A stretch of 29,025 bases of DNA from a candidate division WOR-3 bacterium (GCA_965648905.1 CBFGIT010000032.1:1-29025); one strand, 5' to 3'; numbered from the stretch's first letter, positions 1-28,014 are shown. Notes: a model not told the origin generated them from the letters alone. Numbers and translations are program-made.

Positions 1-84
1 GGGTCGTGGTTTCTCTAATGCCGGTGAAAGGGGCGCTATGAAGAGAAGCGCGAGTATCAGAACCGCGGCTGGCGTTGGCGGCAC
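1..84 (-). CDS. 5' end of a probable secreted protein running off the window edge (partial)
   Basis: GTG at 84 opens MPPTPAAVLILALLFIAPLSPALEKPRP..., open to position 1. It has a hydrophobic signal-peptide-like core. Not in the ORF track; only 28 codons visible. Confidence 0.4.
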   Translation of the reverse strand, partial: MPPTPAAVLILALLFIAPLSPALEKPRP

Positions 85-169
85 GCTGCTCGGCCGCGGA
101 TTCGGCAGGAATGGCTATTGACGACACGACTGCCTAAATGGGTACCGTCCCCAATAATCTTGTCCCTGC

Positions 170-204
170 TTTGCGTCTTGGCTCTTGGCTTCTAGCTCTT
201 GACC
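170..204. repeat. Degenerate heptamer tandem repeat
   Basis: tttgcgt-cttggct-cttggct-tctagct-cttgacc. Confidence 0.6.
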
Positions 205-436
205 TCGCCCCACCCGCTCCTTTCTGCGTCCTTGCTTTCAGCTTCTGCCTTAGTCTCGTGACTGCCTACGCCCCTCGGCCCATCACCCCTGCCGAAAGCG
301 AGGGGACAGCAAGAGCCGGGCCGACGCTGTCGTCAGCTTGGCCGTAGAAGAGAGCGACTAACGCACGGCTTGGCGGACAGACCTGCTTTGGAATTCCGAA
401 CTGACAAGAGGTTTTTCGCGAGACGTGTCCGTTTGC

Positions 437-760
437 TCATCGATAGGGCGACAAGGCCATATTCAACTCGATGGAGCTAACATCGGACTCCAGGGAGCTG
501 ACGTCAGACTCGATGGAGCTGACGTCAGACTCGATGGAGCTGACGTCAGACTCGATCTGACTGACCTCGGAACCAATGAATGAAAGCTCCATCTGGATTG
601 AACGTAGTCGGGCATCGATGTGCACCATCCACAACGCAAAGAGAGTCATCAGCAAACCCAAAAAGAATGCTCGCCAGTGCGCCTTTGCAAGCCGAAGGAC
701 TGTCTTTGCAACTCGCTTCACCACGTCTCCTTTCAGCGGTTTATCTCGGAATCTCGACAT
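437..760 (-). CDS. Small membrane-anchored coiled-coil protein (hypothetical)
   Basis: One TM segment (AFFLGLLMTLFALWMV) followed by heptads (SDVSSIE)n. An alternative start is GTG at 721, behind AAAGGAG. Confidence 0.7.
   Translation of the reverse strand: MSRFRDKPLKGDVVKRVAKTVLRLAKAHWRAFFLGLLMTLFALWMVHIDARLRSIQMELSFIGSEVSQIESDVSSIESDVSSIESDVSSLESDVSSIELNMALSPYR
467..571. repeat. 21-bp tandem repeat x5 encoding heptad SDVSSIE
   Basis: Units ctcgatggagctgacgtcaga (exact at 509-529 and 530-550), with variants at 467, 488 and 551. Confidence 0.95.
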
Positions 761-892
761 TTCCGGGACATTTTGCTTAGCTTCTTGTCGTCGATGACTG
801 CCGGACTTCGTGTCTTACTCGAGTCATTGTACTCTGGGTCGGGGGGCAGTGTTTGGTGTGCGCGGAAACTCCCGCGGCGCGCTACCAGACTG

Positions 893-1030
893 TTGAGGTC
901 GGACTGACTGTTGTCCCTCCCCGACCATCTGTTTCGGTCACGCCGTGATAGTAGATGCCCGGGTTGGGCGTGTCAAGAAGAGAGCAAGAGAATCAAGGGG
1001 GCAGGGAACCGAGGGGTCGAGTGGCCGGGA
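893..1030 (-). repeat. Promoter/leader module, copy 1
   Basis: 952-977 matches 3261-3286 at 24/26 nt. It shares the gaatcaagggg octamer-like tract on the upstream side and about 50 bp of colinear leader downstream. Edges approximate. Confidence 0.8.
948..976 (-). promoter_or_regulatory. sigma70-type promoter (module copy 1)
   Basis: Minus strand TTGACA (976-971), 17-bp spacer, TACTAT (953-948). Confidence 0.75.
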
Positions 1031-1083
1031 AGGGGCCAGGGGGCAGAATCGCAGGGACGCGCGGGGCGGGGTGGGAAAGAGCA

Positions 1084-1722
1084 TCAGCCGAACCGTGACA
1101 TGTAGTTGGCGATTCTGGACTTGATCTGGTCCAGGGTCAGGGCGCTCGGCTGGAGCCTGGCTGCCCAGACTCGGCCTGGGTGAAGCGTGTCCCAGTTCGG
1201 GCGTCTTCCCCGGTGGCGCCCGGCCCCCGGGTCGTGGTTGCCGAAGCCGTCCAGAACCACGTTCCACAGTGGCTTGTAGCTATCTAGGAGTAGCGATTCC
1301 GCAAGGCGAATCCAGACTTCGTCTACAACTAGGTGGCGGCACCCGAAGTCCGCGAGTTCCAGGTTCCGGGCCTGCCGAATTGACTCGGCGTGTTCTTCGA
1401 GCCGGCGGAACAGCACCGGGTCCGGCCGCGGTTCGTCCGAGAACTCGCCGCCTTTCCGCCCACCCGGCGGGACCGCCTTGCCGACGTAGATTGGATGCTG
1501 CCATTGCTCGGCATTGGCCTGGGCCAGCGGCCGGTACAGGGCGAAGTCCCCGCGGTAGTAGATGGCGTAGATGCCAGCCCCGGGAAAGCGCGTTTGTGGC
1601 GGCAGCGGGTGTACGTCATGACCCAGAAGCTCCCGGACGATGCTTTCGGCCAGCCGTCGCTTCTCCAATGGGTTGTACGGTTTCAGCGTCCTGCCGTTGA
1701 TAGGCCCGGGTCTTGCCTTCAC
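1084..1722 (-). CDS. Eco29kI-family GIY-YIG type II restriction endonuclease
   Basis: GAGIYAIYY...PIYVGKA, RRLEEH, LAESLLL, PLWN..LDGFGNHDPG.GR, WDTLHPGR.WA are hallmark motifs of the Eco29kI/Cfr42I family. Lies directly downstream of an MTase. Confidence 0.93.
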   Translation of the reverse strand: MKARPGPINGRTLKPYNPLEKRRLAESIVRELLGHDVHPLPPQTRFPGAGIYAIYYRGDFALYRPLAQANAEQWQHPIYVGKAVPPGGRKGGEFSDEPRPDPVLFRRLEEHAESIRQARNLELADFGCRHLVVDEVWIRLAESLLLDSYKPLWNVVLDGFGNHDPGAGRHRGRRPNWDTLHPGRVWAARLQPSALTLDQIKSRIANYMSRFG

Positions 1723-1728
1723 TGCCAG

Positions 1729-3249
1729 CTATCGCTTCCGGAGCATCACCGCTGACTCGTAGAGCGTGGCGCGTGACTCCAGCCCGCGGCGCACCGCGGA
1801 CTTGGTGATGCTTGCTCCCACGCGCTTGGTCCTGAGCATCTCAATGCCTAAGACCTCGTACCCAAGTCGAGTCGCGAGGTCGGCCAGAATGCGGTCGACC
1901 TTGACTTCGTGCCCTTGGATGATGGAGTTGCCAATGACGATGACCACGGTTCCGCCTTTGGCGAGCGACGGTCTCATGACTGCTAGGTAACGCTGGGTGT
2001 CGTTCAAGTAGGAGGCAACGTAGTTAGCCCAACCCGGCCCGCCGTAGGCACCCTCGTCGGTGCGCGTCGACCGGAGTTCGTTCAGTAGCCGATGTACCGC
2101 CGTGTCTTCAAACTCAAGCTCGACCGGCTCCGAATCCCGGACAGTCTGCCAGTACTTCCCGACATTGTTCTCTTCCAAGCTACGCAGGTCCTCGCGGCCT
2201 TGCACGAGGTCCAGCCAGTGAAGCTGCGGCCGGGTGCTGCGGACGTAGTGGTAGTTGTTCATGTACGGGGGCGAGGTAACCACGAGGTCGATGCTGGCCG
2301 GCTTCAGCACACGTTGTGAGTCCATGAAGCTCATCTGGTGAACCGCTCCTTCTCCCTGAACAGCCGCGGACTTCAGTTCCGACTGCAGCCATGTCACGTC
2401 GTGGAGCATCTGGCCGAGCTTGCGCAGGATGCAGCCATGCACGTCCGCATCCTCGACTAGCGGCTTCCCTGCTCCGGGCCGGGAGCAGAGGCTCGGTTCG
2501 TAAGTGTAGTTGGAGAAACTCACCATCACGGCACCGAAGGCCAGCCGGAACAAGTCGGCTACCTCCGGGCTGCGGATGGTGCGCAGGAATGCCCGAAACC
2601 CGAAGACCTGTTTCTCGACCGAGGGGCTGAAGAACGGGATGCGCGTCATGAAGTCAGCGGGCCGAGTACCAGTCTTGCGGTGCGAGCCATTCCGGCTGAA
2701 CTCCGCATAGCGCCGGCACTGCCTCCCGAACTCCGCTGGGTCGATTCGCAGCGCGGCCATCTTCGCGCGGCAAGCCAATGCAGCATACGGGTTGATCTCG
2801 AAACCGATGGTGTCATTGCCGGCGGTCAGCGCGGCGACCAAGGTCGTGCCCACGCCGGCAAATGGGTCCAGCACGCAAGGTCGTCTCCCAGCCGAGCGGG
2901 GCAAGAACTCGCGCATGCAGTCATCGACGAACGCAGAAGAGAAACCGGCAATCCAAGGAATCCAGCGATGAACCGGGACCTCGCGGTTTTCCATGAAGGC
3001 TGAATCACGGAATCGGCGGACCGGAGCCTCGGTCGAGTCAACGACCGGCAATTCAAGCTGCGGGCCGCAGGCCAAGGCGTCGCGGACAAGGAATGATTCG
3101 AATCGCTGTACCCGATGCCGGGGCCGCGGACGGGCGGTGGATTTCTCCGGTTTTCTGGAAGAATCCTGGCGGCACAATGTCAGACTCCTGACGCCAGCCG
3201 ACGACGTCGGCCTAGCTGCTGTCAGTCGCCGTCTATCCACTTTGGCCAT
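1729..3249 (-). CDS. DNA amino-methyltransferase, probably N4-cytosine (motif I before motif IV)
   Basis: DPFAGVGTT (SAM binding) precedes VVTSPPY (catalytic); PVHRW..W.AGFS near the N-terminus. The ORF-track start 3357 is upstream of the promoter at 3257-3285, so I used ATG 3249. The true start could be further downstream. Confidence 0.9.
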   Translation of the reverse strand: MAKVDRRRLTAARPTSSAGVRSLTLCRQDSSRKPEKSTARPRPRHRVQRFESFLVRDALACGPQLELPVVDSTEAPVRRFRDSAFMENREVPVHRWIPWIAGFSSAFVDDCMREFLPRSAGRRPCVLDPFAGVGTTLVAALTAGNDTIGFEINPYAALACRAKMAALRIDPAEFGRQCRRYAEFSRNGSHRKTGTRPADFMTRIPFFSPSVEKQVFGFRAFLRTIRSPEVADLFRLAFGAVMVSFSNYTYEPSLCSRPGAGKPLVEDADVHGCILRKLGQMLHDVTWLQSELKSAAVQGEGAVHQMSFMDSQRVLKPASIDLVVTSPPYMNNYHYVRSTRPQLHWLDLVQGREDLRSLEENNVGKYWQTVRDSEPVELEFEDTAVHRLLNELRSTRTDEGAYGGPGWANYVASYLNDTQRYLAVMRPSLAKGGTVVIVIGNSIIQGHEVKVDRILADLATRLGYEVLGIEMLRTKRVGASITKSAVRRGLESRATLYESAVMLRKR

Positions 3250-3335
3250 CGCGGTCATGATAGATGCCCGGTCTGGGCGTGTCAAGCAGAGAAGAAGAAT
3301 CAAGGGGTCGAGGAACCGGGAGGCAGAGTGACAAG
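3200..3335 (-). repeat. Promoter/leader module, copy 2
   Basis: 3256-3298 is identical to 4366-4408 at 42/43 nt. Edges approximate. Confidence 0.9.
3257..3285 (-). promoter_or_regulatory. sigma70-type promoter (module copy 2)
   Basis: TTGACA (3285-3280), 17-bp spacer, TATCAT (3262-3257). The in-frame ATG follows 7 nt later. Confidence 0.8.
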
Positions 3336-3434
3336 GGGGTGCGCAAGTCGACCCCATACGCTATCGTCCGCCCGGCCTCGGGTGAGGTTAACCAACGCAC
3401 GGCTTGACAGACGAACCCGTCCACGGGAACTACC

Positions 3435-3539
3435 GATGATCTCATATCGTATCAATCCGCACGGCTCGTACACGAGCGCATCGGTCTGCCTTTCGGTGAC
3501 GGTCACCGCGCGCAATTGAGGTTCCTGCTGGTTCTGGGC
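3435..3539 (-). pseudogene. Eroded remnant resembling the C-terminal tail of a Type IIG/Eco57I-like RM enzyme
   Basis: Translates AQNQQEPQLRAVTVTERQTDALVYEPCGLIRYEII, similar to the common tail '..QRQIxATDRQIDxLVYELYGLTxEEI'. Recognised by eye only. Confidence 0.55.
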
Positions 3540-3748
3540 ACGGCTTTCGACCTTCCGGGTCGCTACCTAATGCCGGTGCATCGTTCAAGGTCGGGAGGGT
3601 TACTTCAGGGCGACTCCAAGGCGCCTTGGTCCAATAGCCGCTCCGGCCGAACTACGCCCAAGCACGGCCCAGTTCCTGACTAACGGGCAGTAACGGAAGG
3701 CGCACTTGGCCTCCGTAATCAGGTCATCCGGTCTGACTAAGCTCGCGA

Positions 3749-4246
3749 CTATCTCTGATCACGCAGAATGACGTTCACCGCTGAAGGCCTGAGCCGATAG
3801 GCATCGCCCATAATGAGTCCGGAAAACAGGCCACAGCCGGCCACTCCGGCGCCACCCAGCATTAGTGTGCCAGTGAGGCCCGAGGTGAATGAGCTGTAGG
3901 CAGGTCCTGAGGACCGACTATCCGCATTCCTCTTCAGGAGATACCCGGCGCCAGCGAGTAACAACCCTCCTCCTGTGAATCCTACAAGGTAGCAGCCGCG
4001 CAGGCTGCGATGCAGGTCTACCGCCACCGGCTCGTACCCATCCTTGCTAAGCACGATTGTTACATTCTCCGTCCTGTTCAACTTAAGCAGTACCGGGGTC
4101 GTCGCGACTTGTACGCCCCTGACAGTGACAGCAGCGCCGGGCGGCTCGGAGCGAACCCAGACGCGCTGGGTTGGGGCGCAGCCCGTCACCACGACCGTCG
4201 AGAGCAACAGGACTGATACCCACCGTTGCAGGTCTGAACTACACAT
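3749..4246 (-). CDS. PEGA-domain lipoprotein with C-terminal hydrophobic/Gly-rich segments
   Basis: Lipobox VVTGC; VRSEPPGAAVTVRG...TTP...LSKDGYEP is PEGA-like. AAGGA RBS precedes ATG 4246; the ORF-track start 4426 lies upstream of the promoter. Confidence 0.75.
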   Translation of the reverse strand: MCSSDLQRWVSVLLLSTVVVTGCAPTQRVWVRSEPPGAAVTVRGVQVATTPVLLKLNRTENVTIVLSKDGYEPVAVDLHRSLRGCYLVGFTGGGLLLAGAGYLLKRNADSRSSGPAYSSFTSGLTGTLMLGGAGVAGCGLFSGLIMGDAYRLRPSAVNVILRDQR

Positions 4247-4317
4247 GCATGATTCCTTTCGCGTCTTCCTGAATCCCGATGACGCAATACGTAACCATTG
4301 ACGCCGGTTGGACATCA

Positions 4318-4455
4318 CGTGGCTGGTTGCCATCAACCGCCGTACATCTGGATCGGTCGCGCGACCATGATAGATGCCCGGTCTGGGTGTGTCAAGCAGA
4401 GAAGAAGAGGAGGAATCAAGGGTCAAGGAATCGAACGGCTAGGGAGCAGAGTGGC
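4318..4455 (-). repeat. Promoter/leader module, copy 3
   Basis: Matches copy 2 at 42/43 nt in the core; same flanking gaatcaaggg tract. Edges approximate. Confidence 0.9.
4367..4395 (-). promoter_or_regulatory. sigma70-type promoter (module copy 3)
   Basis: TTGACA (4395-4390), 17-bp spacer, TATCAT (4372-4367). Confidence 0.8.
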
Positions 4456-4565
4456 AGCGGGGTGCGCGGGGCGGGGGTCGATGCCACCGCCGGCAGGCAC
4501 AAGTGAATCACCGCGCCGACTGTACGCCGTGCCGCTCTAGCTGGGCGGGACGGACGAGCTGTGAG

Positions 4566-4769
4566 TCAGGCGAGGTCGGCGACGCTGACGAGCCGTCGTT
4601 CGGCACAGGTGCGCCGGTGGCGACGACAGCGTTCAATCTCATGGAGCGTGTTGGCCGTCAGGTAGCTCTGGCCGCAGTGGGGGCATGCGACAACCGGCAC
4701 GTTCTCAATGACGAACAGGCTTCGGCCCCTGCCGTAGCTCCGGGTGACACGCTCGATGCGTGCGCCATC
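4566..4769 (-). pseudogene. 5'-truncated YgiT-type (MqsA-like) zinc-finger protein
   Basis: DGARIERVTRSYGRGRSLFVIENVPVVACPHCGQSYLTANTLHEIERCRRHRRTCAERRLVSVADLA*. The IENVP..CPHCG.SY motif is present, but the first CxxC and an in-frame start codon are missing. Absent from the ORF track. Confidence 0.8.
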
Positions 4770-5187
4770 ACGAGTTGCGGTCGAGCTGGAGCTGGTTTTG
4801 GTTGGGTTTCGTGGAAGTTCGGTCTAATGCTCTGAGCTGCGTGTTTGCGAAAGTTGGACCGGCAACACCGGTTGCGCGACTGATGTCTTGAGTGGTCCGG
4901 GGAGCGAGTGGGGGAACGGCTCCCGTAACCAGACCGGAAGCTGGACCATGGACTGGTTGCGTCTGTGCCTGGCAGTTCGGTCATGCTGGCAGGCGTGATT
5001 CCGGTTCTGGTTGCGGGTGCGACTGCAGAACCGGCGGCAACCGCGTTGCCGGTTGCGGCCGCGGTTGACGAAGCTGTTACGTGAGTAGGTCGGTTATCGT
5101 GTCTGAGGACGGCCGCAAAGCCGAACCTGTCGCTGCCTGCGAAAGCGGTAGCGAAAGGAGATGCGCGACTGCCGGCAGCGTCAGCGC

Positions 5188-8100
5188 CTAGAACTGGCCG
5201 GTGATGCGGCCGGAAAGAGCGAGCGAGCGGGGCGGAGTTGGGGCGAGCGGATGGGAGTAGTTAAGGCTGAACTGGAGGTAGAGGAACCGGAGCAGGTTGA
5301 GGTTGAAGCCGAGGCCGGGGAGGAGCGTGAGGGTCGAACGGCTGTTGGTGAAGGATGAGGACCGGGTCGTGTCGGTCTGCTGGCGCGAGGCGCCGAGGTC
5401 GAGCGTGGCAAAGGACTTGGTGGTGAAGCGGTACAGGAGCTGGGAGTTGAGCTTGAGTTCGCCGGAGGAGACCTGCGGAGCAGTCTTGCTGCCCCAGGCG
5501 TCGGTGTTGGTGCGGCCGCTGGCAGTGAGCTTGGTGCGGATTTTGTCCGACCAGGGCCGGTTCCATTCCAGAAACAGGCTGCTCGTGGTGCTGAACGGAT
5601 AGCTCGCGACGCGGCGGAGTGTCCACTGGCCGCTGAACATGCCCCAGCGCGGAGGCTGGTATTCGATTCTGACCTCGTCGTCGGTCGAAGGCGACAGTTC
5701 GGGCAGAGCGTAAAGGGCAAATCCGCTCCGGTTCAGGGCCCGGCGGTATCGCAGCATCAGCGTGGACCAGGGGTCAAGTTGGACCGAGCCATACATGGTC
5801 ACGAGGTCTTTGACCCGGGAAACAGGGACGCCAGGCAGGGGCCGCAGGCGGAAAGGCGGTGCTGCGGCCTCGATGTTGCGGGAGTACTGGTCGAAGTTCG
5901 TGCCTGCGCCGGCTGAGAAGTTGACCACGGCAAGGCGCGGGTCCCAGCGGCCCGGGGCGATGCGCAGGTCGTTGAAGACGTAGGAAGAGACCGAGAGGTC
6001 GCGAGTCGGGGGGACACGACCCGAATTGTCGGACAATTCGGTCATGTCCCCTCTGAGGTTGAAGGTGCCAACATAGTAGAGCCCGGGGATGGCGTCAACG
6101 TTGAGGCGGCCGCGGAGTTCGCGCTGCGTTGCGGCCTGCGCGCCAAACAGGCGGTTGGAGCGCAGGCGGAAGTTGCCTGTGACCGGAAAGGGCAGGGTGA
6201 ATCCGGCGTCGGCGATGTACTCGGAGGAGCGATAGTGAGGGGTCAGGGAATCATGTGCCTGAGGTTCAACGGCTGTGTTCTGGTACACGCCTGCGAGCTT
6301 GAGCCGGGTCGATAGCACGGTGAACTCGTGGCCGAGGCTGGCCTTGAGGCGCAGCTTGTCGTTGTCCGGCAGCATGTCCTTACCAACCAGCAGATAGCCG
6401 TTGGGCAGGTTCTGGTTCAGGTAGCTTAAGCGGGCGCTAGTGTAGTTGGCGGTCACAGGAGACCAGTCGGCGAGGTACTCGCGGCGGATGCTGCCGTCGA
6501 GACGCACCTGGGCGATTGGCTCGATGCCGAGCGAAGCTGCGGCACTGTGCCGGAGGTCGCCGTACTTGCGCTTCTGCCGGCCAAAGGCTTCAAACCTGGC
6601 TGCGTAGCTTTCGTACTCGGCACGACAGGAGAGCCATTGGTAGTTGGCCGTAAGCGTGTGGTGCTGGGCTGCGGCACCGCGGGTATTGACCGCGAACTGG
6701 GGAATAACTGTCAGGCTTAGGGGAAACGCTCCCGAATCCGAAGGAGGTTTGGTGTTCAGTCCCTTTGTTTCGAACCGGCCGGAGAGGTGCACCATATCTT
6801 CGCTGTCCGCGTGTGAGAACCCGGGCGACAGCCTGAGCCCGGGCGCGACCGCGATATTGGGCTGGGCCGACCAGAACAGCGACTTCTCCTCACGTTCGAC
6901 CGACGAGTACCGGACTGTGATTTCGCTGTAGTCGGTCACGATGTCGGGCTTCAAGAACACGAGCGTGCCCGAGGTGTAGTCAATGGTATAGTCGGTGCCG
7001 CGTCGAACTGGTTCGCCATCGACCAGCACCTCTTCGCTGTTGCGCACAACCGGGCAGGACGACAGATAGTAGAAGAGCGAGTATGACCGGTAGCTCAGGT
7101 GCATCGTGTAACACCGTCGGCGTTCGGTGTAGACCACGTCCGGGAAAGGCCGGGCCGTGGGGAACAGAAGGAATCCCAGGTCGCAGTTGACGAACTCCGG
7201 GTCCACGCTGTTGTCGCCGTCTTGGTCCAGCCCGAACTCGCTCAGGGCGTGGACTTGTCCCAGAGTGTCTACAATCGTCATGACGAGCGAGCCGGGGATG
7301 ATTCCTGAGCCGAGAGCGTAGACGTTCTCCATCACGTGGTCGGTGACCGTTTCGGACTGGAGCACCAGTTCCTCGCTGCCGAGCTTGAGGCAGACCAAGT
7401 CGGTCGGCCGGACCGGCACTGCGAACTGGACGATGCCGCGGTCATAGTCGATGTGATAACCCTTGCCACGGATGAGCGGGTCGAAGTCGCCGGTAATGCC
7501 GGCAACTGTGAAGCCGATGCGCGTGTCGAGCTTGTTCGTCAGGACCTGGTGGTCGTCGATGAAGATAGTGTCCTGGGTGCGCTTGAGCGGCCGGGCCGGC
7601 TGGTATACATGGTAGAAGGCGTTCCTGACGTAGTTCACATCGGGCAAGGTGAGGTTCTTGTCCAAAGACCGGCCGGTGAAGAGGTCAATGCGCGGTCGGG
7701 ACTGGAGTTTGCCCGCCTGGACCCCGGCGCGGTGGTCTTGGTACTGGAGCCGGGCGTTGCCGCCGAAAAGAGAGAGCTGCGGAATGATGTCAAGGTCAGA
7801 GTACTCAGACTCGACAAAGCCTGCATCAGCCCGCCGCAGGATGTCTTGCGCAGTGCCCCGATACCCGGCGCCGTAAACGACCTGGTCTTTGTCGGTGTCG
7901 TCGTAGTACAGGGATAAAGAACGGTTGCTGGAGTGGAGCGCGGCGAGGTTCAGGGCTGCGGTACGACTGCCGGTGCGGCTGGTTGACTCGGGCGTTACGG
8001 TTCTTGATAGCGCGTGGTAGGCGCGGCCGGTCAGGCGCAGGTCGGTCGCAGGGATAAGCCGCAGGTGCCCGCCCGCATCGTCCAGATAGACGAGCTGCTG

Positions 8101-9126
8101 CCGAACTGCGTCGGCCCGGGCCAGCTTCTCGACCTTCCAGATGCCGGCGGCGCGGTCCTGAAACTCGATGGCCTTTTCGGTCACGGCGAAGAGCACCTGG
8201 CCGTCCTGGAAAGCGGCCCTGATGGTGTCGGTCTCGAGTCCGGTCGCGACTGAGTACGTGCGCACCGTGCGGGTCGCGAGGCTGTCAATCAGGAGACCTT
8301 TGTCTGTAGCCAGCACGAGGTTCGCGCCCGAGGCAGTAATGCCGTTGACCGGGGCCAGGTTCTCGATGTCGCGGAATACGACCCAGTTGTCCGAGCCGGG
8401 CTCGTACAGCACCACGCGGCCCCGGCTGACGACAAACAGCGAATCGCCCAGAATTGAGTAATCGGATATTTCGATGCCACGATAGACCGACCATGCCGCG
8501 GTTGCCCGGCGATAGGCAACCAGACCCTGCGACGAGACAAACCAGACGCGTTGCTCAGTGCTGATGATGCGGTCATAGGCATAGGGCGGCGCGGACACGG
8601 CTTCGAGTTGGTTGAACTCGCGGCTGTAGCGCGCGAGTCCAGAGTCAGTGGCAAGCCAGACATAGTCATTGTCCGAGAATACGTCGTTCGCCGGCAAGGC
8701 ACTGACCTGGTGCCACTGCTCGGTGATGCGGTCGAACCGTGCGAGACCGAACCGGCCTGCGGCCCAGACATAGTCCTTGTCAAACGCGAGTCCGGTTACC
8801 CTGCCAGGCAGGTCATAGGTCTGCCAGTCGCCGAGCTTCAGGTCGGCTGAGGCAAGGCCTGAGTCTGTCGCGACCCAGAGTATGCCGTCGTCAACACCCA
8901 GGACGTTAACCGAGTTATCAGGCAGGCCGCTGGCTTTGGTGATTCTGCCCCAGGTCTGGGTGGTGCGGTTATAGGTGTGGATGCCAAGGGGCGTTGTGAC
9001 GAACAGGTACTCAGCAGCATGTCGGTCAGCAGTACCGTCGAGTATCATGGGCCGCCCCTCGAACGCCTTGCGCGTCAAGCCCAGGGCAGGAGCGGCGGTC
9101 AGGAGCACGACGGCCACGAGCCGCAA
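5188..9126 (-). CDS. Large secreted/outer-membrane protein: N-terminal beta-propeller, SprA-like middle motifs, C-terminal beta-barrel
   Basis: Signal peptide (LRLVAVVLLTAAPALG; TTG 9126 preferred over 9207). Propeller blades LWVATDSGL and VWLATDSGL; EEVLVDGEPVRRGTDYTIDYTSGTLVF; amphipathic strands; terminal Phe. Confidence 0.8.
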   Translation of the reverse strand: MRLVAVVLLTAAPALGLTRKAFEGRPMILDGTADRHAAEYLFVTTPLGIHTYNRTTQTWGRITKASGLPDNSVNVLGVDDGILWVATDSGLASADLKLGDWQTYDLPGRVTGLAFDKDYVWAAGRFGLARFDRITEQWHQVSALPANDVFSDNDYVWLATDSGLARYSREFNQLEAVSAPPYAYDRIISTEQRVWFVSSQGLVAYRRATAAWSVYRGIEISDYSILGDSLFVVSRGRVVLYEPGSDNWVVFRDIENLAPVNGITASGANLVLATDKGLLIDSLATRTVRTYSVATGLETDTIRAAFQDGQVLFAVTEKAIEFQDRAAGIWKVEKLARADAVRQQLVYLDDAGGHLRLIPATDLRLTGRAYHALSRTVTPESTSRTGSRTAALNLAALHSSNRSLSLYYDDTDKDQVVYGAGYRGTAQDILRRADAGFVESEYSDLDIIPQLSLFGGNARLQYQDHRAGVQAGKLQSRPRIDLFTGRSLDKNLTLPDVNYVRNAFYHVYQPARPLKRTQDTIFIDDHQVLTNKLDTRIGFTVAGITGDFDPLIRGKGYHIDYDRGIVQFAVPVRPTDLVCLKLGSEELVLQSETVTDHVMENVYALGSGIIPGSLVMTIVDTLGQVHALSEFGLDQDGDNSVDPEFVNCDLGFLLFPTARPFPDVVYTERRRCYTMHLSYRSYSLFYYLSSCPVVRNSEEVLVDGEPVRRGTDYTIDYTSGTLVFLKPDIVTDYSEITVRYSSVEREEKSLFWSAQPNIAVAPGLRLSPGFSHADSEDMVHLSGRFETKGLNTKPPSDSGAFPLSLTVIPQFAVNTRGAAAQHHTLTANYQWLSCRAEYESYAARFEAFGRQKRKYGDLRHSAAASLGIEPIAQVRLDGSIRREYLADWSPVTANYTSARLSYLNQNLPNGYLLVGKDMLPDNDKLRLKASLGHEFTVLSTRLKLAGVYQNTAVEPQAHDSLTPHYRSSEYIADAGFTLPFPVTGNFRLRSNRLFGAQAATQRELRGRLNVDAIPGLYYVGTFNLRGDMTELSDNSGRVPPTRDLSVSSYVFNDLRIAPGRWDPRLAVVNFSAGAGTNFDQYSRNIEAAAPPFRLRPLPGVPVSRVKDLVTMYGSVQLDPWSTLMLRYRRALNRSGFALYALPELSPSTDDEVRIEYQPPRWGMFSGQWTLRRVASYPFSTTSSLFLEWNRPWSDKIRTKLTASGRTNTDAWGSKTAPQVSSGELKLNSQLLYRFTTKSFATLDLGASRQQTDTTRSSSFTNSRSTLTLLPGLGFNLNLLRFLYLQFSLNYSHPLAPTPPRSLALSGRITGQF
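6010..6051. repeat. 42-bp palindromic element (in-frame, intragenic), copy A
   Basis: GGGGACACGACCCGAATTGTC-G-GACAATTCGGTCATGTCCCC, a near-perfect hairpin; 36/42 identical to 25554-25595. Confidence 0.9.
6720..6764. repeat. Probable diverged relative of the palindromic element (45 bp, in frame)
   Basis: GGGGAAACGCTCCCGAAT... resembles the copy A left arm GGGGACACGACCCGAAT and ends in GTCCCT. Encodes GLNTKPPSDSGAFP in a likely loop. Confidence 0.45.
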
Positions 9127-9155
9127 TGCTCTTAGTTCTCGTCCGTTCCCGGACG

Positions 9156-10664
9156 CTACTCCTCGATGAATCCCGAAGGTATCTCCTCCGGCACAGACTG
9201 GCCGCACTGGCGCTGCTGCACTTTGGCGTCGGTCTTGTAGGAGCCGGTGCGGCGGCGTTCTTCGCCGATAGAGAAGACCTGGATGGCGGCCGGACCTTCA
9301 AGCGGGCAACGCGCTTCGCACGCGCCGCAGCCGACACACGCCTCGGCATTCACCGACGGCCGCAAAGCCTGCCCCATGCCGGTCGGGTCCTTGACCGCGT
9401 TGATGGCGTCGTAAGGGCAGGCTTCGTCGCAGACCAGGCAGTGCTTGTCGCGTTCCCAGGCCAGGCAGCGGCTGCGGTCCACGGCCGCGGTGCCCATCTT
9501 GGCATAGCTCTTTTCTTCGAGCGACAGGTTGCGGATAGCACCGGTCGGGCACGCCCGACCGCACAGGTTGCAGTTCTTCTCGCAGGCACCGACACGCGGC
9601 ACGACTCTCGGGGTCCAAAATCCGTTCACGCCGGACTCGAGGATGGCCGGCTGCAGACACCCGCTCGGGCAGGCCTTGATGCACCGGTCGCAGCGCAGGC
9701 AGGTGGCAAGAAAACTTGCCTCAGGCAGAGCGCCCGGTGGTCGGATGAGCCGGGAGGTAAGCCGCGCGTGCAGCAGGCTGCGCGCGAGCGGTGCAAGAAG
9801 AAGAGCAGAGCCGGCTGCAAGGATTGTTTCGCGGCGACCGATGTCGAACCTCTCAGGCCTTGTCTGCACGCGGTAGCCGACGGTTCCGTGTGCGCAGCGG
9901 TACTTGCAGGCCAGACAGTCGATGCACTCGGATGAGTCAATGCGGCGCTCGGCCGACTTGACGGCTCCGGTCGGGCAGGCTGACTCGCACAGGCCGCATT
10001 CCTTGCACTCATTCTGAAACGCGAACTTGAACAGAGAGAAGCGCGAGCAGATGGCAAGCAGGCCACCGAGCGGGCACAGATTGCGGCACCAGAACCGTGG
10101 GGCGACAAACCCGAACAGGAGGATGCCGGCAAAGGTCGCGAAAGCCGTGAATGTCTCGGTTACTGTGACAGCCCGGGTTGCGCCGACCAGGCCCGCAAGA
10201 TACGTGCCGACCGGGTAGAAGACAAGGGCGAGGGTGCGCTCCATTATGACCAGCGGGTCGAAGAAGCCGATGAACGACGCGCCGAGGAGCGCAGACAGAA
10301 GCAGGAACAGGAGCAGCGCGTACTTCAGGTTGCGCAGCGGCGAACCCGGCCTGTTTCTGCGCCGGACCACTGCGTCAAACAGGTCGATGGTTGTGCCCAA
10401 GGGGCAGACGAACCCGCAGAAGAAGCGCCCAAAGACCAACGTGGCCACCACCAGGATGAGCGCAGGCAGGGCCGCAGCCACGAGAACTCGAGCAGCCAGG
10501 CTTGTCACCACAAGTACCAGCGGGTCGAATCGGAAGAAGACGTCACCGCCAACCGGGCTTGTGCCGTACCGGGTCCTGAGGAACAGAGCAATGAACAGCG
10601 CAAGAAAGGCGAGCTGTATTGCCCACCTGATTAGCCGTTCGGCTGCGAGCTTCGGTCGGCTCAC
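9156..10664 (-). CDS. Membrane polyferredoxin (NapH/MauN-like TM + 4Fe-4S domain fused to NapG/MauM-like domain)
   Basis: GRFFCGFVCPLG and RFWCRNLCPLG; multiple CxxCxxCxxxCP motifs; LIRPPGALPEASFLATCLRCDRC; internal GRRETIL followed by a hydrophobic segment. Confidence 0.9.
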   Translation of the reverse strand: MSRPKLAAERLIRWAIQLAFLALFIALFLRTRYGTSPVGGDVFFRFDPLVLVVTSLAARVLVAAALPALILVVATLVFGRFFCGFVCPLGTTIDLFDAVVRRRNRPGSPLRNLKYALLLFLLLSALLGASFIGFFDPLVIMERTLALVFYPVGTYLAGLVGATRAVTVTETFTAFATFAGILLFGFVAPRFWCRNLCPLGGLLAICSRFSLFKFAFQNECKECGLCESACPTGAVKSAERRIDSSECIDCLACKYRCAHGTVGYRVQTRPERFDIGRRETILAAGSALLLAPLARSLLHARLTSRLIRPPGALPEASFLATCLRCDRCIKACPSGCLQPAILESGVNGFWTPRVVPRVGACEKNCNLCGRACPTGAIRNLSLEEKSYAKMGTAAVDRSRCLAWERDKHCLVCDEACPYDAINAVKDPTGMGQALRPSVNAEACVGCGACEARCPLEGPAAIQVFSIGEERRRTGSYKTDAKVQQRQCGQSVPEEIPSGFIEE

Positions 10665-25389: not shown

Positions 25390-28014
25390 TTGAGAAAGCT
25401 GATGATAGTATTCCCTTTTCTCGTGGTGAATGTGCTTGTGGCCGGTGAGTTCCTGGGCATTGTCCCCGAGGGACGGTTTGAGGACTTGGCCGGACAATAC
25501 ACTGTTGTCGGACAGACCCGAAACGGTATGCTCGTGCTCGGCAGTTCTAGTCAGGGGACACGGTCCGGCCTGTCGGACAATCCGGTCATGTCCCCCCAGA
25601 ATCAAGTCCGCGTGCTTGCGACCGAGCCGCGCGACCATGTCTACTACACTGTGCGTCTGTTTGACCAGGACGCGCTGGCCGAGCTGGCGCAGCTTACGCG
25701 CATCCTCGACTTTGACGGCGAGCAGTATCTGGTTGAGGTCAACCCGAACCGCATCGAAGAACTGCTGTCACTGCGCGTCATGCTTGGCCGGGTCAGCCTT
25801 TCCGGCTGGAAGCCGGCGCTGCCTGCGCCGGACCTGCCGCCCGTGACTGCGAACCCGATGATTGAGCAGATGGTTGCGCGCGTGAACCCGGATACGGTTC
25901 TGTCGTATGTCCGACGGCTGCAGAACTACCGCTCCCGTTATTCGACCGGGGACTCCTGTCGCGCGGCCTGCGAGTGGGTGAGGCAGCGTTTCCTCGCGTA
26001 CGGCTGCGATACGGTAATCATGCAGCCGCACCGGACCGGCCATGCGCCCAATGTCATCGGCGTGCGCTACGGCACTGCGGGCCGGCGCAACAAGTACGCG
26101 ATTATCAGCGGTCACATTGACTCTTATGCTGCGTCGAACGCACCAGGCGCTGACGACAATGCCTCAGGCACGGCCGCGACCCTGGAGGCCTGCCGGGCTA
26201 CCCAGGGGTTCCGATTCACTCAGGACTTGCGGTTCATCGCCTGGACTGGCGAGGAGTTCGGCCTGTACGGCTCTGAGGCATATGCGAACGAGGCCCGGGT
26301 CCGGGGTGACACGATTCTCGGGGTGCTCAACTTCGACATGATCGGCTACGTGGACGCGGCTCCTGAAGACTGCGACATGATGGCCAAGATTGCCAACCCG
26401 CCCTGCGAGCCGTTCTGCGACTGGTTCATTGCGGTCGCTGATACTTACACGGCCCTGCCCTGTCTTAAGCGGATGATGAGTGACAATCAGAACTCTGACC
26501 ACGGCCCGTTCTGGAACAACGGTTACGTTGCGCTCACCGGGATTGAGGATTTCTGGCCGACCAATCCGCACTACCACACGAGCCACGACTCAATCGGCGC
26601 CGGATACAACAACAACGAGTTCTGTACCGAAGTGACCAGGGCCGGGCTTGCCGCACTTGCAACCCTGGGTGAACCGATACCATCGAACCAGCCGATGGTC
26701 GGTCTGTTCCGCACCCGGCTGGACGACGCCTCGGGCAACGGCAACGGCCGCTGGGACGCGGGCGAGTCGGTCGCGGTCTATCTCACCCTCAAGAACTTCG
26801 GCCTCATTGCCGCGACCAATGTCCAGGCGAGCATTGCGACTTCTGACCCCTATGTTACCTTGTTCCAGACCAGTGCCAACTATGGGACGGTCAACGGGCA
26901 GGATACGGCCAACGGGTCGAACCCGTTCACGATGAAGGCGTCGCCCGTCACCCCGCGTGAGCACGTCGCGGATTTCACCCTGACTATCACCTCAACCGAG
27001 ACGACATGGGTGAACAACTTCGCGCTCCGAATTGGTGAATACCTGATTACCGACCCGGTCCCGGACGGCCCGCGTCAGCCGCCGCTGTACTGGGCCTACG
27101 ACAACATCGACACCGGTTTTCCGCAGCATCCGACCTATGACTGGTTCGAAATCCGCTCCCTTGGCACGCGCATCACCTATGCGCAGAACGATGACGTCGC
27201 AGTTGTCAGTCTGCCGACCGGGTTCGGGCCGTTGCGCTTCTACGGTCAGCAGTATACCCAGGTTTCGGTCTCGGCTGACGGCTGGCTTGCCGCGGGCAAC
27301 TACCCTCAACGCAACTACTCCAACACCACCCTGCCCAGCAGTTCAGCTCCGCCCGCAATCATCTGTGCCAACTGGGACGACCTGTACCCGGACTACAACG
27401 GGACCGGATTCGTCTACTGGTATCACGACGCGGCCAACCACCGTTTCATCATCGAATTCGACAGCGTCAAGTACTACACCGGCTCGGTACGCGACAAGTT
27501 CCAGTACATCATCTATGACACGACCCGGGCCGCGCCGGACGGTAACAGCGTGATTGTGGTTCAGTACATGACTGCGAACGGCTACACCAGTTCCACGGTC
27601 GGGCTGCAGGACCAGACCCGTACCATCGGTATCGCTGCCCTGTTCAACGGCACGCTTGCCCGTGGCGCGGCTCCAGTTCAGGCCGGCCGGGCAATCAAGT
27701 ATACGACCGATGCTCCGACCGGGCTGGAGGAGCTTGCTGCTCGCTCGATGTCTGCCGGGGTACGCCTCGGCCTTGGTGCGAATCCGGTTTCGGCCCGGAC
27801 TCGGGTCATGTTCTCGCTGCCGGCAGCAGGACCGGTCGAACTCGCGGTCTTTGACCGGGCTGGTCGAAAGTCGGCGCAACTGGTTCGGACCGTGATGCCG
27901 GCCGGTCAGCATAGTGTTCTCTGGGACCCGCAGTCGCTTGTGCCTGGAGTCTACTTTCTGAGACTTGTGACCGAACGCGGCCATGCTTCAGTAAAGACCG
28001 TGGTCAGCCGCTAG
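25390..28014 (+). CDS. Secreted M28-family zinc aminopeptidase with accessory beta domains and Por-secretion/FlgD-like C-terminal tail
   Basis: GHIDS, PGADDNASG, GEEFGLYGS, NFDMIG, SDHGPF, YHTSHD; C-terminal ANP...AVFDRAGR...PGVYFLRL...KTVV. Confidence 0.93.
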   Translation: MRKLMIVFPFLVVNVLVAGEFLGIVPEGRFEDLAGQYTVVGQTRNGMLVLGSSSQGTRSGLSDNPVMSPQNQVRVLATEPRDHVYYTVRLFDQDALAELAQLTRILDFDGEQYLVEVNPNRIEELLSLRVMLGRVSLSGWKPALPAPDLPPVTANPMIEQMVARVNPDTVLSYVRRLQNYRSRYSTGDSCRAACEWVRQRFLAYGCDTVIMQPHRTGHAPNVIGVRYGTAGRRNKYAIISGHIDSYAASNAPGADDNASGTAATLEACRATQGFRFTQDLRFIAWTGEEFGLYGSEAYANEARVRGDTILGVLNFDMIGYVDAAPEDCDMMAKIANPPCEPFCDWFIAVADTYTALPCLKRMMSDNQNSDHGPFWNNGYVALTGIEDFWPTNPHYHTSHDSIGAGYNNNEFCTEVTRAGLAALATLGEPIPSNQPMVGLFRTRLDDASGNGNGRWDAGESVAVYLTLKNFGLIAATNVQASIATSDPYVTLFQTSANYGTVNGQDTANGSNPFTMKASPVTPREHVADFTLTITSTETTWVNNFALRIGEYLITDPVPDGPRQPPLYWAYDNIDTGFPQHPTYDWFEIRSLGTRITYAQNDDVAVVSLPTGFGPLRFYGQQYTQVSVSADGWLAAGNYPQRNYSNTTLPSSSAPPAIICANWDDLYPDYNGTGFVYWYHDAANHRFIIEFDSVKYYTGSVRDKFQYIIYDTTRAAPDGNSVIVVQYMTANGYTSSTVGLQDQTRTIGIAALFNGTLARGAAPVQAGRAIKYTTDAPTGLEELAARSMSAGVRLGLGANPVSARTRVMFSLPAAGPVELAVFDRAGRKSAQLVRTVMPAGQHSVLWDPQSLVPGVYFLRLVTERGHASVKTVVSR
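25554..25595. repeat. 42-bp palindromic element (in-frame, intragenic), copy B
   Basis: GGGGACACGGTCCGGCCTGTCGGACAATCCGGTCATGTCCCC; 36/42 identical to 6010-6051. Confidence 0.9.

What the first reader, a model, noticed from the sequence alone, without database searches (positions are those of the whole stretch)
893..4455. Integrase-less cassette-like array: one promoter/leader module repeated in front of three unrelated cargo units
Seen: three same-orientation copies (about 893-1030, 3200-3335, 4318-4455) of a roughly 130-bp module. Each has an octamer-like tract (gaatcaag/gggtcgag/gaaccgag), then TTGACA-17bp-TA(T/C)(C/T)AT, then about 50 bp of colinear leader. Copies 2 and 3 are 42/43 identical in the core; copy 1 is 24/26. 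Each heads a different cargo: a PEGA lipoprotein, an MTase+REase pair, and a membrane coiled-coil protein. Decayed relics (zinc finger, Type IIG tail) lie upstream of copies 3 and 2. No integrase, transposase or convincing attC is in the window. Inference: a gene capture/exchange hotspot in which the repeat supplies both expression and a homology or recombination anchor, unlike integron cassettes, which are usually promoterless.
Basis: partly seen in the sequence, partly recalled or inferred. Interest (0 to 1): 0.8.

Follow-up and report, generated by a model that had tools for sequence, protein, structure and literature searches.

The report
Transposon-end promoter modules before accessory genes
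The three repeats are real: each joins a promoter-like sequence to the worn end of a small tyrosine-transposase jumping element, and each sits in front of imported genes with no other strong promoter, which it likely switches on and may help to swap; this is a variant of known promoter-carrying mobile DNA, not a new integron-like machine.

Summary
The repeat is real (minus strand) and not confined to the window. This WOR-3 genome has 7 copies (3 here, 4 elsewhere), and a congener has two weak homologs, the stronger at a non-orthologous site. Each copy is TTGACA-17-TA(T/C)NAT, a start codon 6-7 nt later (6 of 7 copies), about 55 nt, then the left terminal inverted repeat (TIR) of a Y1-transposase element (TIRtron), strong to decayed. 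Two IS110 right-end relics, inserted in such TIRs, also lie in the window. The cargos are accessory and have no other strong promoter match. At the methyltransferase the TIR end replaces the native ATG and the module's ATG is in frame. Copy 2 is a mosaic, and a related strain changes sequence at copy 1's upstream edge, which suggests recombination between copies. I found no attC and no integron integrase. Verdict: a promoter-carrying, one-ended transposon relic in a mobile-DNA hotspot. Dedicated gene capture is unproven (about 10%). This scan has noted similar TIRtron/IS110 debris and IS-derived promoter modules in other genomes.

The parts
135..158 (+). TIR end of a second TIRtron subtype (same type as the ends of the intact TIRYT element at G000:C3)
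   Evidence: sequence; compare L056 ends; 7 further matches in the genome
243..396 (+). IS110 right-end relic followed by the outer half of a TIR; outer end 41 nt from the stop codon of cargo 1
   Evidence: nhmmer E 1e-30 with a profile that included this copy; 0/500 shuffles against the C3 IS110 end; junction table; distance
437..721 (-). Cargo 1: small protein with a hydrophobic stretch and a 7-residue (21-bp) repeat; SD AAAGGAGA at 733-726, likely GTG start at 721
   Evidence: a relative (P0001) has one repeat unit fewer; in 0 of 65 relatives
757..784 (-). Second, weak TIR-like end just upstream of cargo 1
   Evidence: PWM score 12.2, below the 14 threshold used genome-wide; tentative
865..990 (-). 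Module copy 1 (w1): -35 976-971, -10 953-948, GTG 941-939, leader with an internal deletion, decayed TIR
   Evidence: TIR score not significant on its own (166/1500)
990..1030 (-). Octamer-like tract upstream of copy 1 (similar tracts at about 3298-3335 and 4410-4455); window-specific, not part of the genome-wide module
1084..1722 (-). Cargo 2b: Eco29kI-family type II restriction endonuclease
   Evidence: Pfam PF09517 E 1e-64; PADLOC REase_II
1729..3249 (-). Cargo 2a: type II DNA methyltransferase; the native start is replaced by the TIR end and the frame is open from the module ATG at 3249
   Evidence: PF01555, PADLOC MTase_II; N-terminus compared with P0181 and leaderless homologs
3161..3300 (-). 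Module copy 2 (w2): -35 3285-3280, -10 3262-3257, ATG 3249-3247, leader with a weak hairpin, TIR about 3192-3161; mosaic
   Evidence: (6/1500)
3358..3431 (+). Truncated IS110 right-end relic plus TIR outer half
   Evidence: nhmmer E 2e-9 with a profile built without this copy; 0/500 shuffles
3430..3515 (-).
   Evidence: translation; no meaningful hit
3749..4246 (-). Cargo 3: PEGA-domain putative lipoprotein with its own SD, starting about 25 nt after the TIR end
   Evidence: PF08308 E 1e-6; in 0 of 65 relatives
4271..4410 (-). Module copy 3 (w3): -35 4395-4390, -10 4372-4367, start codon position reads GCG, well-preserved TIR 4303-4271
   Evidence: (0/1500)
4566..4772 (-). Zinc-finger antitoxin-like relic
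   Evidence: Pfam YokU E 0.009, below cut-off
5188..9207 (-). Conserved 1339-aa anchor gene; the variable island begins behind its stop codon
   Evidence: 70% DNA identity over 4 kb in congener G001; no Pfam hit

Best explanation
The repeat is a dispersed, transposase-less module of about 125 bp made of a sigma-70-type promoter motif, a start codon and the left end (TIR) of a Y1-transposase element; it likely drives the promoterless accessory genes that abut its TIR end and likely acts as shared homology through which neighbouring genes get exchanged. Shown: the anatomy, 7 genomic copies, TIR homology, IS110 insertions in the same TIR family, accessory cargos, replacement of the MTase start codon exactly at the TIR end with the module ATG in frame, and mosaicism of copy 2. 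Inferred: (1) the module arose when a TIRtron lost its interior and its left TIR came to lie next to a foreign leaderless promoter; (2) it spread by one-ended Y1 activity at the TIR or by recombination; (3) copies in front of promoterless imports were kept because they give expression; (4) the three local copies recombine with one another, probably by host homologous recombination over the 40-bp near-identical promoter core, which swaps leader plus cargo. The island is fed by several ordinary mobile elements, not by one dedicated capture enzyme.
For: TIR homology: a PWM from 7 TIRs that are not module copies scores w3, C4 and C39 above all 1500 random windows, w2 at 6/1500 and C21 at 14/1500. 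Intact TIRYT elements of about 770 bp with these TIRs were read in 4 loci of relatives, plus gutted 135-390 bp forms and lone left TIRs beside foreign DNA. The IS110 in this genome integrates at a GT core inside the TIR, including the TIR of the C39 module copy. The strongest congener homolog (E 5e-6) lies at a site whose G000 ortholog has no module, and G001 lacks the module at the C21 and C33 sites. The three promoters are the only sigma-70 matches in 5.3 kb. The native MTase N-terminus MPKKSEVSAARP of P0181 aligns with window SSRKPEKSTARP, with M opposite the TIR end, and two family homologs have their own leaderless promoter about 50 codons before FRDSAF. w2 is 37/38 identical to w3 in the promoter but closer to C4/C39 in the leader (max-chi p 0.006 and 0.005, 2 of 7 tests). 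In run X1 one contig follows the window at 655-977 with 1 difference and then changes; another keeps the C4 upstream flank (28/30 by eye) with a leader matching at 16/30.
Against: No transcript or TSS data, so promoter activity is untested. The TIR is not significant on its own in w1 (166/1500) and is marginal in C33 (54/1500). The module interior has no detected homology to TIRYT DNA, so its origin is unknown. The TIRYT of the matching TIR subtype in this genome is 5'-truncated (L058), and the intact one has a different TIR subtype. No strain-level empty site or target duplication was seen. The X1 evidence is two short contigs of depth about 3 from one run. Five of 7 mosaic tests were not significant.
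Confidence: 0.6

Rival explanations
1. Passive debris: one promoter-plus-TIR chimera was copied a few times by chance, partly by local duplication, and neither drives nor exchanges its neighbours.
For: Leaderless promoters of this form are common in the genome (30 strict matches), and similar promoters precede ordinary genes in other genera. The leaders are decaying (deletion in w1, frameshift in C39, lost start codon in w3). There is no coding signal (674/2000 shuffles) and no significant shared fold (z -2.1 to +0.8). The C21 and C39 copies head no promoterless cargo.
Against: The -35 and -10 boxes are intact in 6 of 7 copies while leaders diverge to 50-75%. The MTase has no other start upstream of its conserved FRDSAF motif with a visible SD, and its partner nuclease looks intact. 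Mosaicism and the X1 junctions point to exchange.
Confidence: 0.2
2. Dedicated capture system: the Y1 (TIRYT) enzyme uses TIR ends as attachment sites, excising and inserting promoterless genes that lie between two facing TIR ends, and the module plays the part of the integron Pc promoter.
For: Cargos start 0-70 nt after a TIR outer end at w2, w3, C4 and C33, and end 0-41 nt before another TIR end at cargo 1 and C4. The same R-M pair in another record (L062, 90% DNA identity) is followed by a TIR about 40 nt after its stop, in an island of small genes separated by TIRs. In G000, adjacent TIR ends face each other 6 times and lie back to back once.
Against: 6:1 is not significant (p 0.06). 15 of the 50 ends were added by hand, and 4 of the 6 facing pairs involve module copies. 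In relatives, adjacent strict TIR matches are mostly ordinary element ends (5 back to back, 1 facing, counted by hand; 4 confirmed as TIRtrons). Any gene between two inserted elements is bracketed this way. No cargo was found with the module at two sites.
Confidence: 0.1
3. The module is an IS110-dependent small-RNA or MITE unit like ssr9/MITEPpu9, transcribed from its own promoter and moved by the IS110 recombinase.
For: The leaders of w2, C4 and C39 align to the IS110 right end better than 999-1000 of 1000 shuffles and better than all but 15 of 20000 genomic windows. IS110 ends lie beside 4 of the 7 copies or their cargos. Precedent: PMC12288879 (abstract and passages).
Against: The test was post hoc and the three copies are not independent. 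A profile of 9 IS110 right ends scores the modules at 2.4 bits or less and does not list them among its genome-wide hits. The module lacks the IS110 left end and terminal TTGAC-N-GT junction, and the IS110 inserted into the C39 copy as into a target. There is no Rfam match.
Confidence: 0.07
4. Integron cassette array without integrase (CALIN).
For: Promoterless, unrelated, co-oriented accessory genes, including an R-M pair.
Against: 0 RYYYAAC...GTTRRRY pairs in 1-5300. The genome (99.6% complete) has 2 tyrosine recombinases, both XerC/XerD-like by sequence and neighbourhood. The repeats carry promoters and lie upstream of the genes.
Confidence: 0.02

Closest known systems
TIRtrons / TIRYT, Y1 HUH transposases with terminal inverted repeats (PMC3733652, passages read; subclass 2.1 in PMC6006769, passages read)
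   Same: The module's 3' end is homologous to the left TIR of such elements in this family (GGGGAC-type end). TIR copies form a moderately abundant repeat family in the genome, as described for some species.
   Different: The module has no transposase, usually one TIR only, and a foreign promoter that reads outward through the TIR. In the passages read, neither paper describes outward promoters or cargo expression.
Putative mobile promoters (PMC3575422, part 1 of 2 of the text read)
   Same: Highly similar upstream sequences in front of non-homologous genes in one genome (w2/C4 82% over 108 nt).
   Different: Here a transposon end is part of the unit, and one copy also supplies the start codon.
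PeSL regulatory cassettes of T4-type phages (PMC2839356, abstract and outline only)
   Same: Repeated strong sigma-70-like promoter cassettes among non-essential genes; recombination between copies is proposed to shuffle modules.
   Different: Chromosomal, not phage. No terminator was called next to the modules. Circles were not tested. The unit ends in a TIR.
Promoter-bearing MITEs such as Correia elements (named in PMC3575422; details recalled from memory)
   Same: Small non-autonomous mobile DNA that supplies promoters to neighbours.
   Different: Those have two TIRs, a target duplication and many copies; this one is one-ended with 7 diverged copies.
IS110/IS1111 elements that target REPs, attC sites or transposon IRs (PMC11187229, passages; PMC12288879, abstract and passages)
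   Same: The local IS110 inserts at one position inside another element's terminal repeat.
   Different: The target here is a TIRtron TIR; the IS110 appears to be a passenger of the hotspot, not the module itself.
Integrons / CALIN arrays (defining features recalled from memory)
   Same: Tandem promoterless accessory genes.
   Different: No attC, no IntI; a promoter is repeated in front of each unit.

Membership tests
Integron / CALIN | attC sites (RYYYAAC ... GTTRRRY imperfect palindrome) after each gene | tested here: not met
   0 candidate pairs in 1-5300; simple pattern scan, IntegronFinder itself not available
Integron / CALIN | IntI integron integrase in the genome (not required for CALIN) | tested here: not met
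   2 PF00589 hits, XerC/XerD-like by my reading of sequence and neighbours; no IntI-specific model was run
Integron / CALIN | Promoterless cargo genes | tested here: met
   No sigma-70 match other than the modules in 1-5300
TIRtron (autonomous) | Y1 transposase gene between two TIRs | tested here: not met
   No Y1 ORF in or beside the modules; 2 PF01797 loci elsewhere in G000
TIRtron-derived repeat | End homologous to the TIR flanking TIRYT genes (GGGGWSAS-type) | tested here: met
   5 of 7 copies at 14/1500 or better; w1 and C33 not significant; reference TIRs from intact elements
MITE | TIRs at both ends | tested here: not met
   Only w2 has a second, back-to-back TIR end (3431), and it is IS110-split
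MITE | Target duplication or empty site in a close strain | not testable with these tools
   No conspecific genome held; the congener is too diverged in intergenic DNA
MITE | Several dispersed, non-coding copies | tested here: met
   7 copies on 5 contigs; no coding signal
Putative mobile promoter | At least 80% identity over at least 50 nt upstream of non-homologous genes | tested here: met
   w2/C4 82% over 108 nt; cargos unrelated; other pairs 74-79% over 85-130 nt
Putative mobile promoter | Promoter activity | not testable with these tools
   No RNA holder listed
PeSL cassette | Stem-loop terminator joined to the promoter | tested here: not met
   None of the 4 terminator calls lies at a module; the leader hairpin is weak and not shared
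PeSL cassette | Recombination between copies and mini-circles | tested here: inconclusive
   Mosaic copy 2; X1 junctions; no joint that joins modules in the one run laid
IS110-dependent MITE / sRNA unit | Both IS110 ends with the core dinucleotide at the borders | tested here: not met

The most novel reading that the evidence does not exclude
TIRtron ends serve as attachment sites for a Y1 HUH transposase that captures and exchanges promoterless genes between facing TIR ends, and this module is the system's portable promoter and start codon: an integron analogue run by a single-strand HUH enzyme, which would also give TIRYT proteins a function.
Probability: 0.1. Interest if true: 0.78.

Novelty: new variant of a known kind. 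Interest (0 to 1): 0.33.

Why it matters
It gives a concrete case of how imported genes, including a restriction-modification pair, can obtain expression in an uncultured lineage: a transposon end fused to a leaderless promoter, which in one case also supplies the start codon. It adds to the thin record on TIRtrons (a search for 'TIRYT' found 3 papers, 2 listed): in this family they are multi-copy, leave one-ended relics and are targeted by an IS110. If the Y1 enzyme really moves genes between facing TIR ends, that would be a new gene-capture route. The present evidence is also explained by ordinary mobile-DNA traffic.

Tried and rejected
Exact-pattern scans for the promoter core found 0 matches in GTDB genomes, JGI metagenomes and IMG/VR. 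A promoter-plus-TIR pattern found 0 in GTDB. The tools may withhold the window's own or very near genomes, so these show only 'not found'. The order-wide pattern missed the genome's own C4 copy, so its negative is uninformative; its one hit was L055/L184. BLAST of copy 2 in 40 relatives gave 3 short weak hits in 2 genomes, over the -35 box and purine tract, which I did not inspect. Of 18 non-self hits of model R1 I read 17 (L037 not read): 2 carry a TIR end (G001), about 10 look like ordinary promoters and 5 look like chance matches in coding DNA (by eye). Rfam gave 0 matches at E <= 1. A conserved leader RNA fold was rejected. A conserved leader peptide was rejected (674/2000). A longer 265-bp repeated unit with an IS110 relic upstream of all three copies was rejected: it holds for copy 2 only (219/500 and 75/500 for copies 1 and 3). 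The IS110 right ends at 358-380 and 3387-3417 first looked like attC arms and are not. Octamer tracts are not clearly enriched genome-wide with my pattern (21 against 13 in the reversed control). No RNA holder was listed. Run X1 covers only parts of the island; uncovered parts prove nothing, and its 6 listed joints lie inside the MTase and probably come from other organisms. The X1 sequence beyond 977 has no match with up to 4 mismatches in G000. The G001 livH locus ends too near a contig edge to judge the C39 site. The congener search for the C4 site returned only a flanking gene and IS110 ends. No structure prediction was run, since the finding is non-coding.
Full report
OBSERVATION. The three copies are real and lie on the minus strand: TTGACA at 976-971, 3285-3280 and 4395-4390, a 17-nt spacer, and TACTAT/TATCAT/TATCAT. 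They are the only sigma-70-type matches in 1-5300 (3 found, 0.8 +/- 0.9 in shuffles). Copies 2 and 3 match at 42/43 and copies 1 and 2 at 24/26. The cargos are an Eco29kI-family endonuclease, a type II methyltransferase, a PEGA protein and a small repeat protein with no family above cut-off. Source names of two close homologs say candidate division WOR-3.

THE MODULE IS GENOME-WIDE. BLAST and a profile search of the 3.0-Mb genome give 7 copies: w1-w3 here, and C4, C21, C33 and C39; C39 lacks the -35 box. These 7 were the training set of the profile. The next hit is a promoter-only match at E 0.07. Alignment shows a unit of about 125 bp from a pyrimidine tract before -35 to a conserved 3' block. 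The octamer tract is shared only by the window copies. Six of the 7 copies have ATG or GTG 6-7 nt after the -10 box; w3 has GCG. That layout occurs 30 times in the genome by a strict pattern and precedes ordinary genes in other genera, so the promoter style is generic while the close likeness of these copies is not. A sequence model found weak matches in 11 of 43 relatives. Of 18 hits I read 17; two, both in the congener G001, carry the 3' block (E 5e-6 and 8e-3). The G000 ortholog of the stronger G001 site has no module, and G001 has none at the C21 and C33 sites.

WHAT THE 3' BLOCK IS. An intact Y1 transposase in G001 (PF01797; NCBIfam REP_Tyr_transpos below cut-off) is flanked by inverted repeats. 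The left one reads GGGGACATAATACGCGATTA-TTGACA and runs into a leaderless promoter for the transposase. This fits the TIRtron/TIRYT class of PMC3733652, whose TIRs share GGGGWSAS (passages read), placed in subclass 2.1 by PMC6006769 (passages read). The module's 3' block is the reverse complement of that left TIR. A PWM built from 7 TIRs that are not module copies scored w3, C4 and C39 above all 1500 random windows, w2 at 6/1500, C21 at 14, C33 at 54 and w1 at 166. A PWM retrained on 30 G000 hits (partly circular) gives 55 hits against 4 in the reversed genome. A strict TIR pattern matched 15 of 44 family genomes, up to 18 times in one, with 0 control hits. Among 20 stretches fetched, 4 held intact elements of about 770 bp and others held gutted forms or lone left TIRs beside foreign DNA. 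In G000 the TIRYT of the matching subtype is 5'-truncated and the intact one has another TIR subtype, a copy of which lies at window 135-158. A second repeat at 243-396 and 3358-3431 is the right end of an IS110. Its junctions show integration at a GT core inside the TIR, including the TIR of the C39 module copy and a TIRYT end in G001. IS110/IS1111 elements that target other elements' ends are known (PMC11187229, passages).

CARGO AND HOTSPOT. The repeat protein and the PEGA protein were found in 0 of 65 relatives with these queries, and the MTase in 2 of 65. Behind the same anchor gene G001 has a lipoprotein, a toxin-antitoxin-like pair and a gutted TIRtron, and G010 has other genes. The PEGA gene and the C4 and C33 cargos have their own SD and start within about 70 nt of the TIR outer end; cargo 1 starts about 145 nt after w1's decayed TIR and about 35 nt after a second weak one. 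The MTase is the clearest case. Its closest named homolog begins MPKKSEVSAARPRPRHRV (P0181), the window reads ...QDSSRKPEKSTARPRPRHRV, and the native Met falls on the last bases of the TIR. The frame is open from the module ATG, 28 codons upstream. Two family homologs have their own leaderless promoter about 50 codons before the conserved FRDSAF. I infer that the module replaced both the promoter and the start codon. The same R-M pair at 90% DNA identity occurs in 1 of the 80 metagenome loci kept (L062; 545 were found). It has a different 3' neighbourhood with a TIR about 40 nt after the stop; its 5' end is off the contig and it shows no module.

SIGNS OF EXCHANGE. w2 is nearest to w3 in the promoter (37/38) but nearest to C4 and C39 in the leader and hairpin (25/31 and 30/39, against 20/31 and 21/39 for w3). 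Max-chi p was 0.006 and 0.005; the other 5 of 7 tests were not significant. One run (X1) holds a 434-bp contig that matches 655-977 with one difference and then continues for 111 nt with sequence not found in G000. A second contig keeps the C4 upstream flank (28/30 by eye) with a leader matching at 16/30. Both are single contigs of depth about 3, so this is a hint, not proof.

MECHANISM. Shown: anatomy, dispersal, TIR origin of the 3' end, IS110 targeting, accessory cargos, and the MTase junction. Inferred: a TIRtron lost its interior and its left TIR came to lie next to a foreign leaderless promoter. The chimera spread by one-ended Y1 activity or by recombination. Copies in front of promoterless imports were retained because they give expression. 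The three local copies exchange leader and cargo through the near-identical promoter core, probably by host recombination (confidence 0.6). Against this: there is no transcript evidence, no strain-level empty site, weak TIRs in w1 and C33, and two of four outside copies without promoterless cargo. Passive debris (0.2) is favoured by decaying leaders with no coding or folding signal. A TIRYT-run capture system (0.1) is suggested by cargos bracketed by facing TIR ends. The 6:1 excess is not significant (p 0.06), 15 of 50 ends were hand-added and 4 of the 6 pairs involve modules; in relatives adjacent TIRs are mostly element ends. An IS110-dependent RNA unit like ssr9 (PMC12288879, abstract and passages) (0.07) rests on a post hoc similarity of three leaders to the IS110 right end that a 9-sequence profile does not support. 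An integron is contradicted.

COMPARISON AND NOVELTY. It works like a putative mobile promoter (PMC3575422, part 1 of 2 read; the 80%/50-nt criterion is met by w2/C4) and like the PeSL cassettes of T4-type phages (PMC2839356, abstract and outline). It is built from a TIRtron end but is neither an autonomous TIRtron nor a two-ended MITE. My searches (listings and abstract starts only, except the papers named) showed no description of outward promoters on TIRtron ends. The library lacks most subscription papers, and I did not open supplements, such as the TIR lists of PMC3733652, which may hold similar cases. Earlier notes of this scan report TIRtron ends hit by IS110 in another genome (e1-7896832) and IS-derived promoter modules before cargo (e1-6571887). 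I had reached the TIR reading before seeing them, and they are not independent evidence. Note e1-9847597 listed the PeSL paper.

VERDICT. Observation confirmed, interpretation partly supported. New variant of a known kind; interest 0.33. The boldest reading not excluded, an HUH-driven integron analogue, has probability 0.1 and interest 0.78 if true.

Noticed in passing
G000 C3:51790-52890, C48:200-570, ends of C6, C25, C29, C36, C38, C39, C45; G001 L146: An IS110-family element (NCBIfam NF033542 hits below cut-off on the broken C3 copy) inserts at a GT core inside the TIRtron TIR. A transposase-less form of about 350 bp (C48) and a right-end-only insert of about 105 bp (L146) also occur.
   Followed up: partly
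window 1-159: The contig start overlaps the end of contig C7 at 99.4%. There an IS3-like relic (family recalled from its motifs) abuts the second-subtype TIR, so the island may continue leftwards.
   Followed up: partly
window 466-570: The 21-bp tandem repeat in cargo 1 varies in number: P0001 has one 7-residue unit fewer. GC is 52% against 62% for the rest of the window.
   Followed up: partly
window 6010-6056 and 25554-25600: A palindrome of about 45 bp with GGGGAC-type ends; the first copy lies inside the open frame of the 1339-aa gene. Many copies occur in G001 and G010.
   Followed up: no
G000 C2:118848, C57:4575, C33:20671, C5:34742, C17:27890, C48:200: A second one-ended TIR family. In the C2 and C48 copies the inner side carries the last about 30 codons of a secreted-protein C-terminal domain (by eye).
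   Followed up: no
L055 (G001:C100:9912-10045): An independent promoter + short gene stub + left TIR of the same layout but with unrelated interior, in front of another small-gene pair.
   Followed up: partly
L023 (G000:C26:7087-7118): The promoter of a tRNA-like gene (Gly by eye; ARAGORN not run) matches the module promoter at 28/32; E 0.07 with the profile.
   Followed up: no
L062 1160-4300: Island in a metagenome record with the same R-M pair, two toxin-antitoxin-like pairs and several TIR ends, one IS110-split.
   Followed up: partly
L020 9649-10410: A nucleotidyltransferase-like ORF about 4 kb behind the anchor gene in G010; resemblance to CBASS cyclases is recalled from memory and untested.
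   Followed up: no
genome-wide, G000: 30 strict TTGAC(A/T/G)-17-TANNNT-6/7-RTG matches suggest many leaderless genes in this lineage; no shuffled control was run.
   Followed up: no
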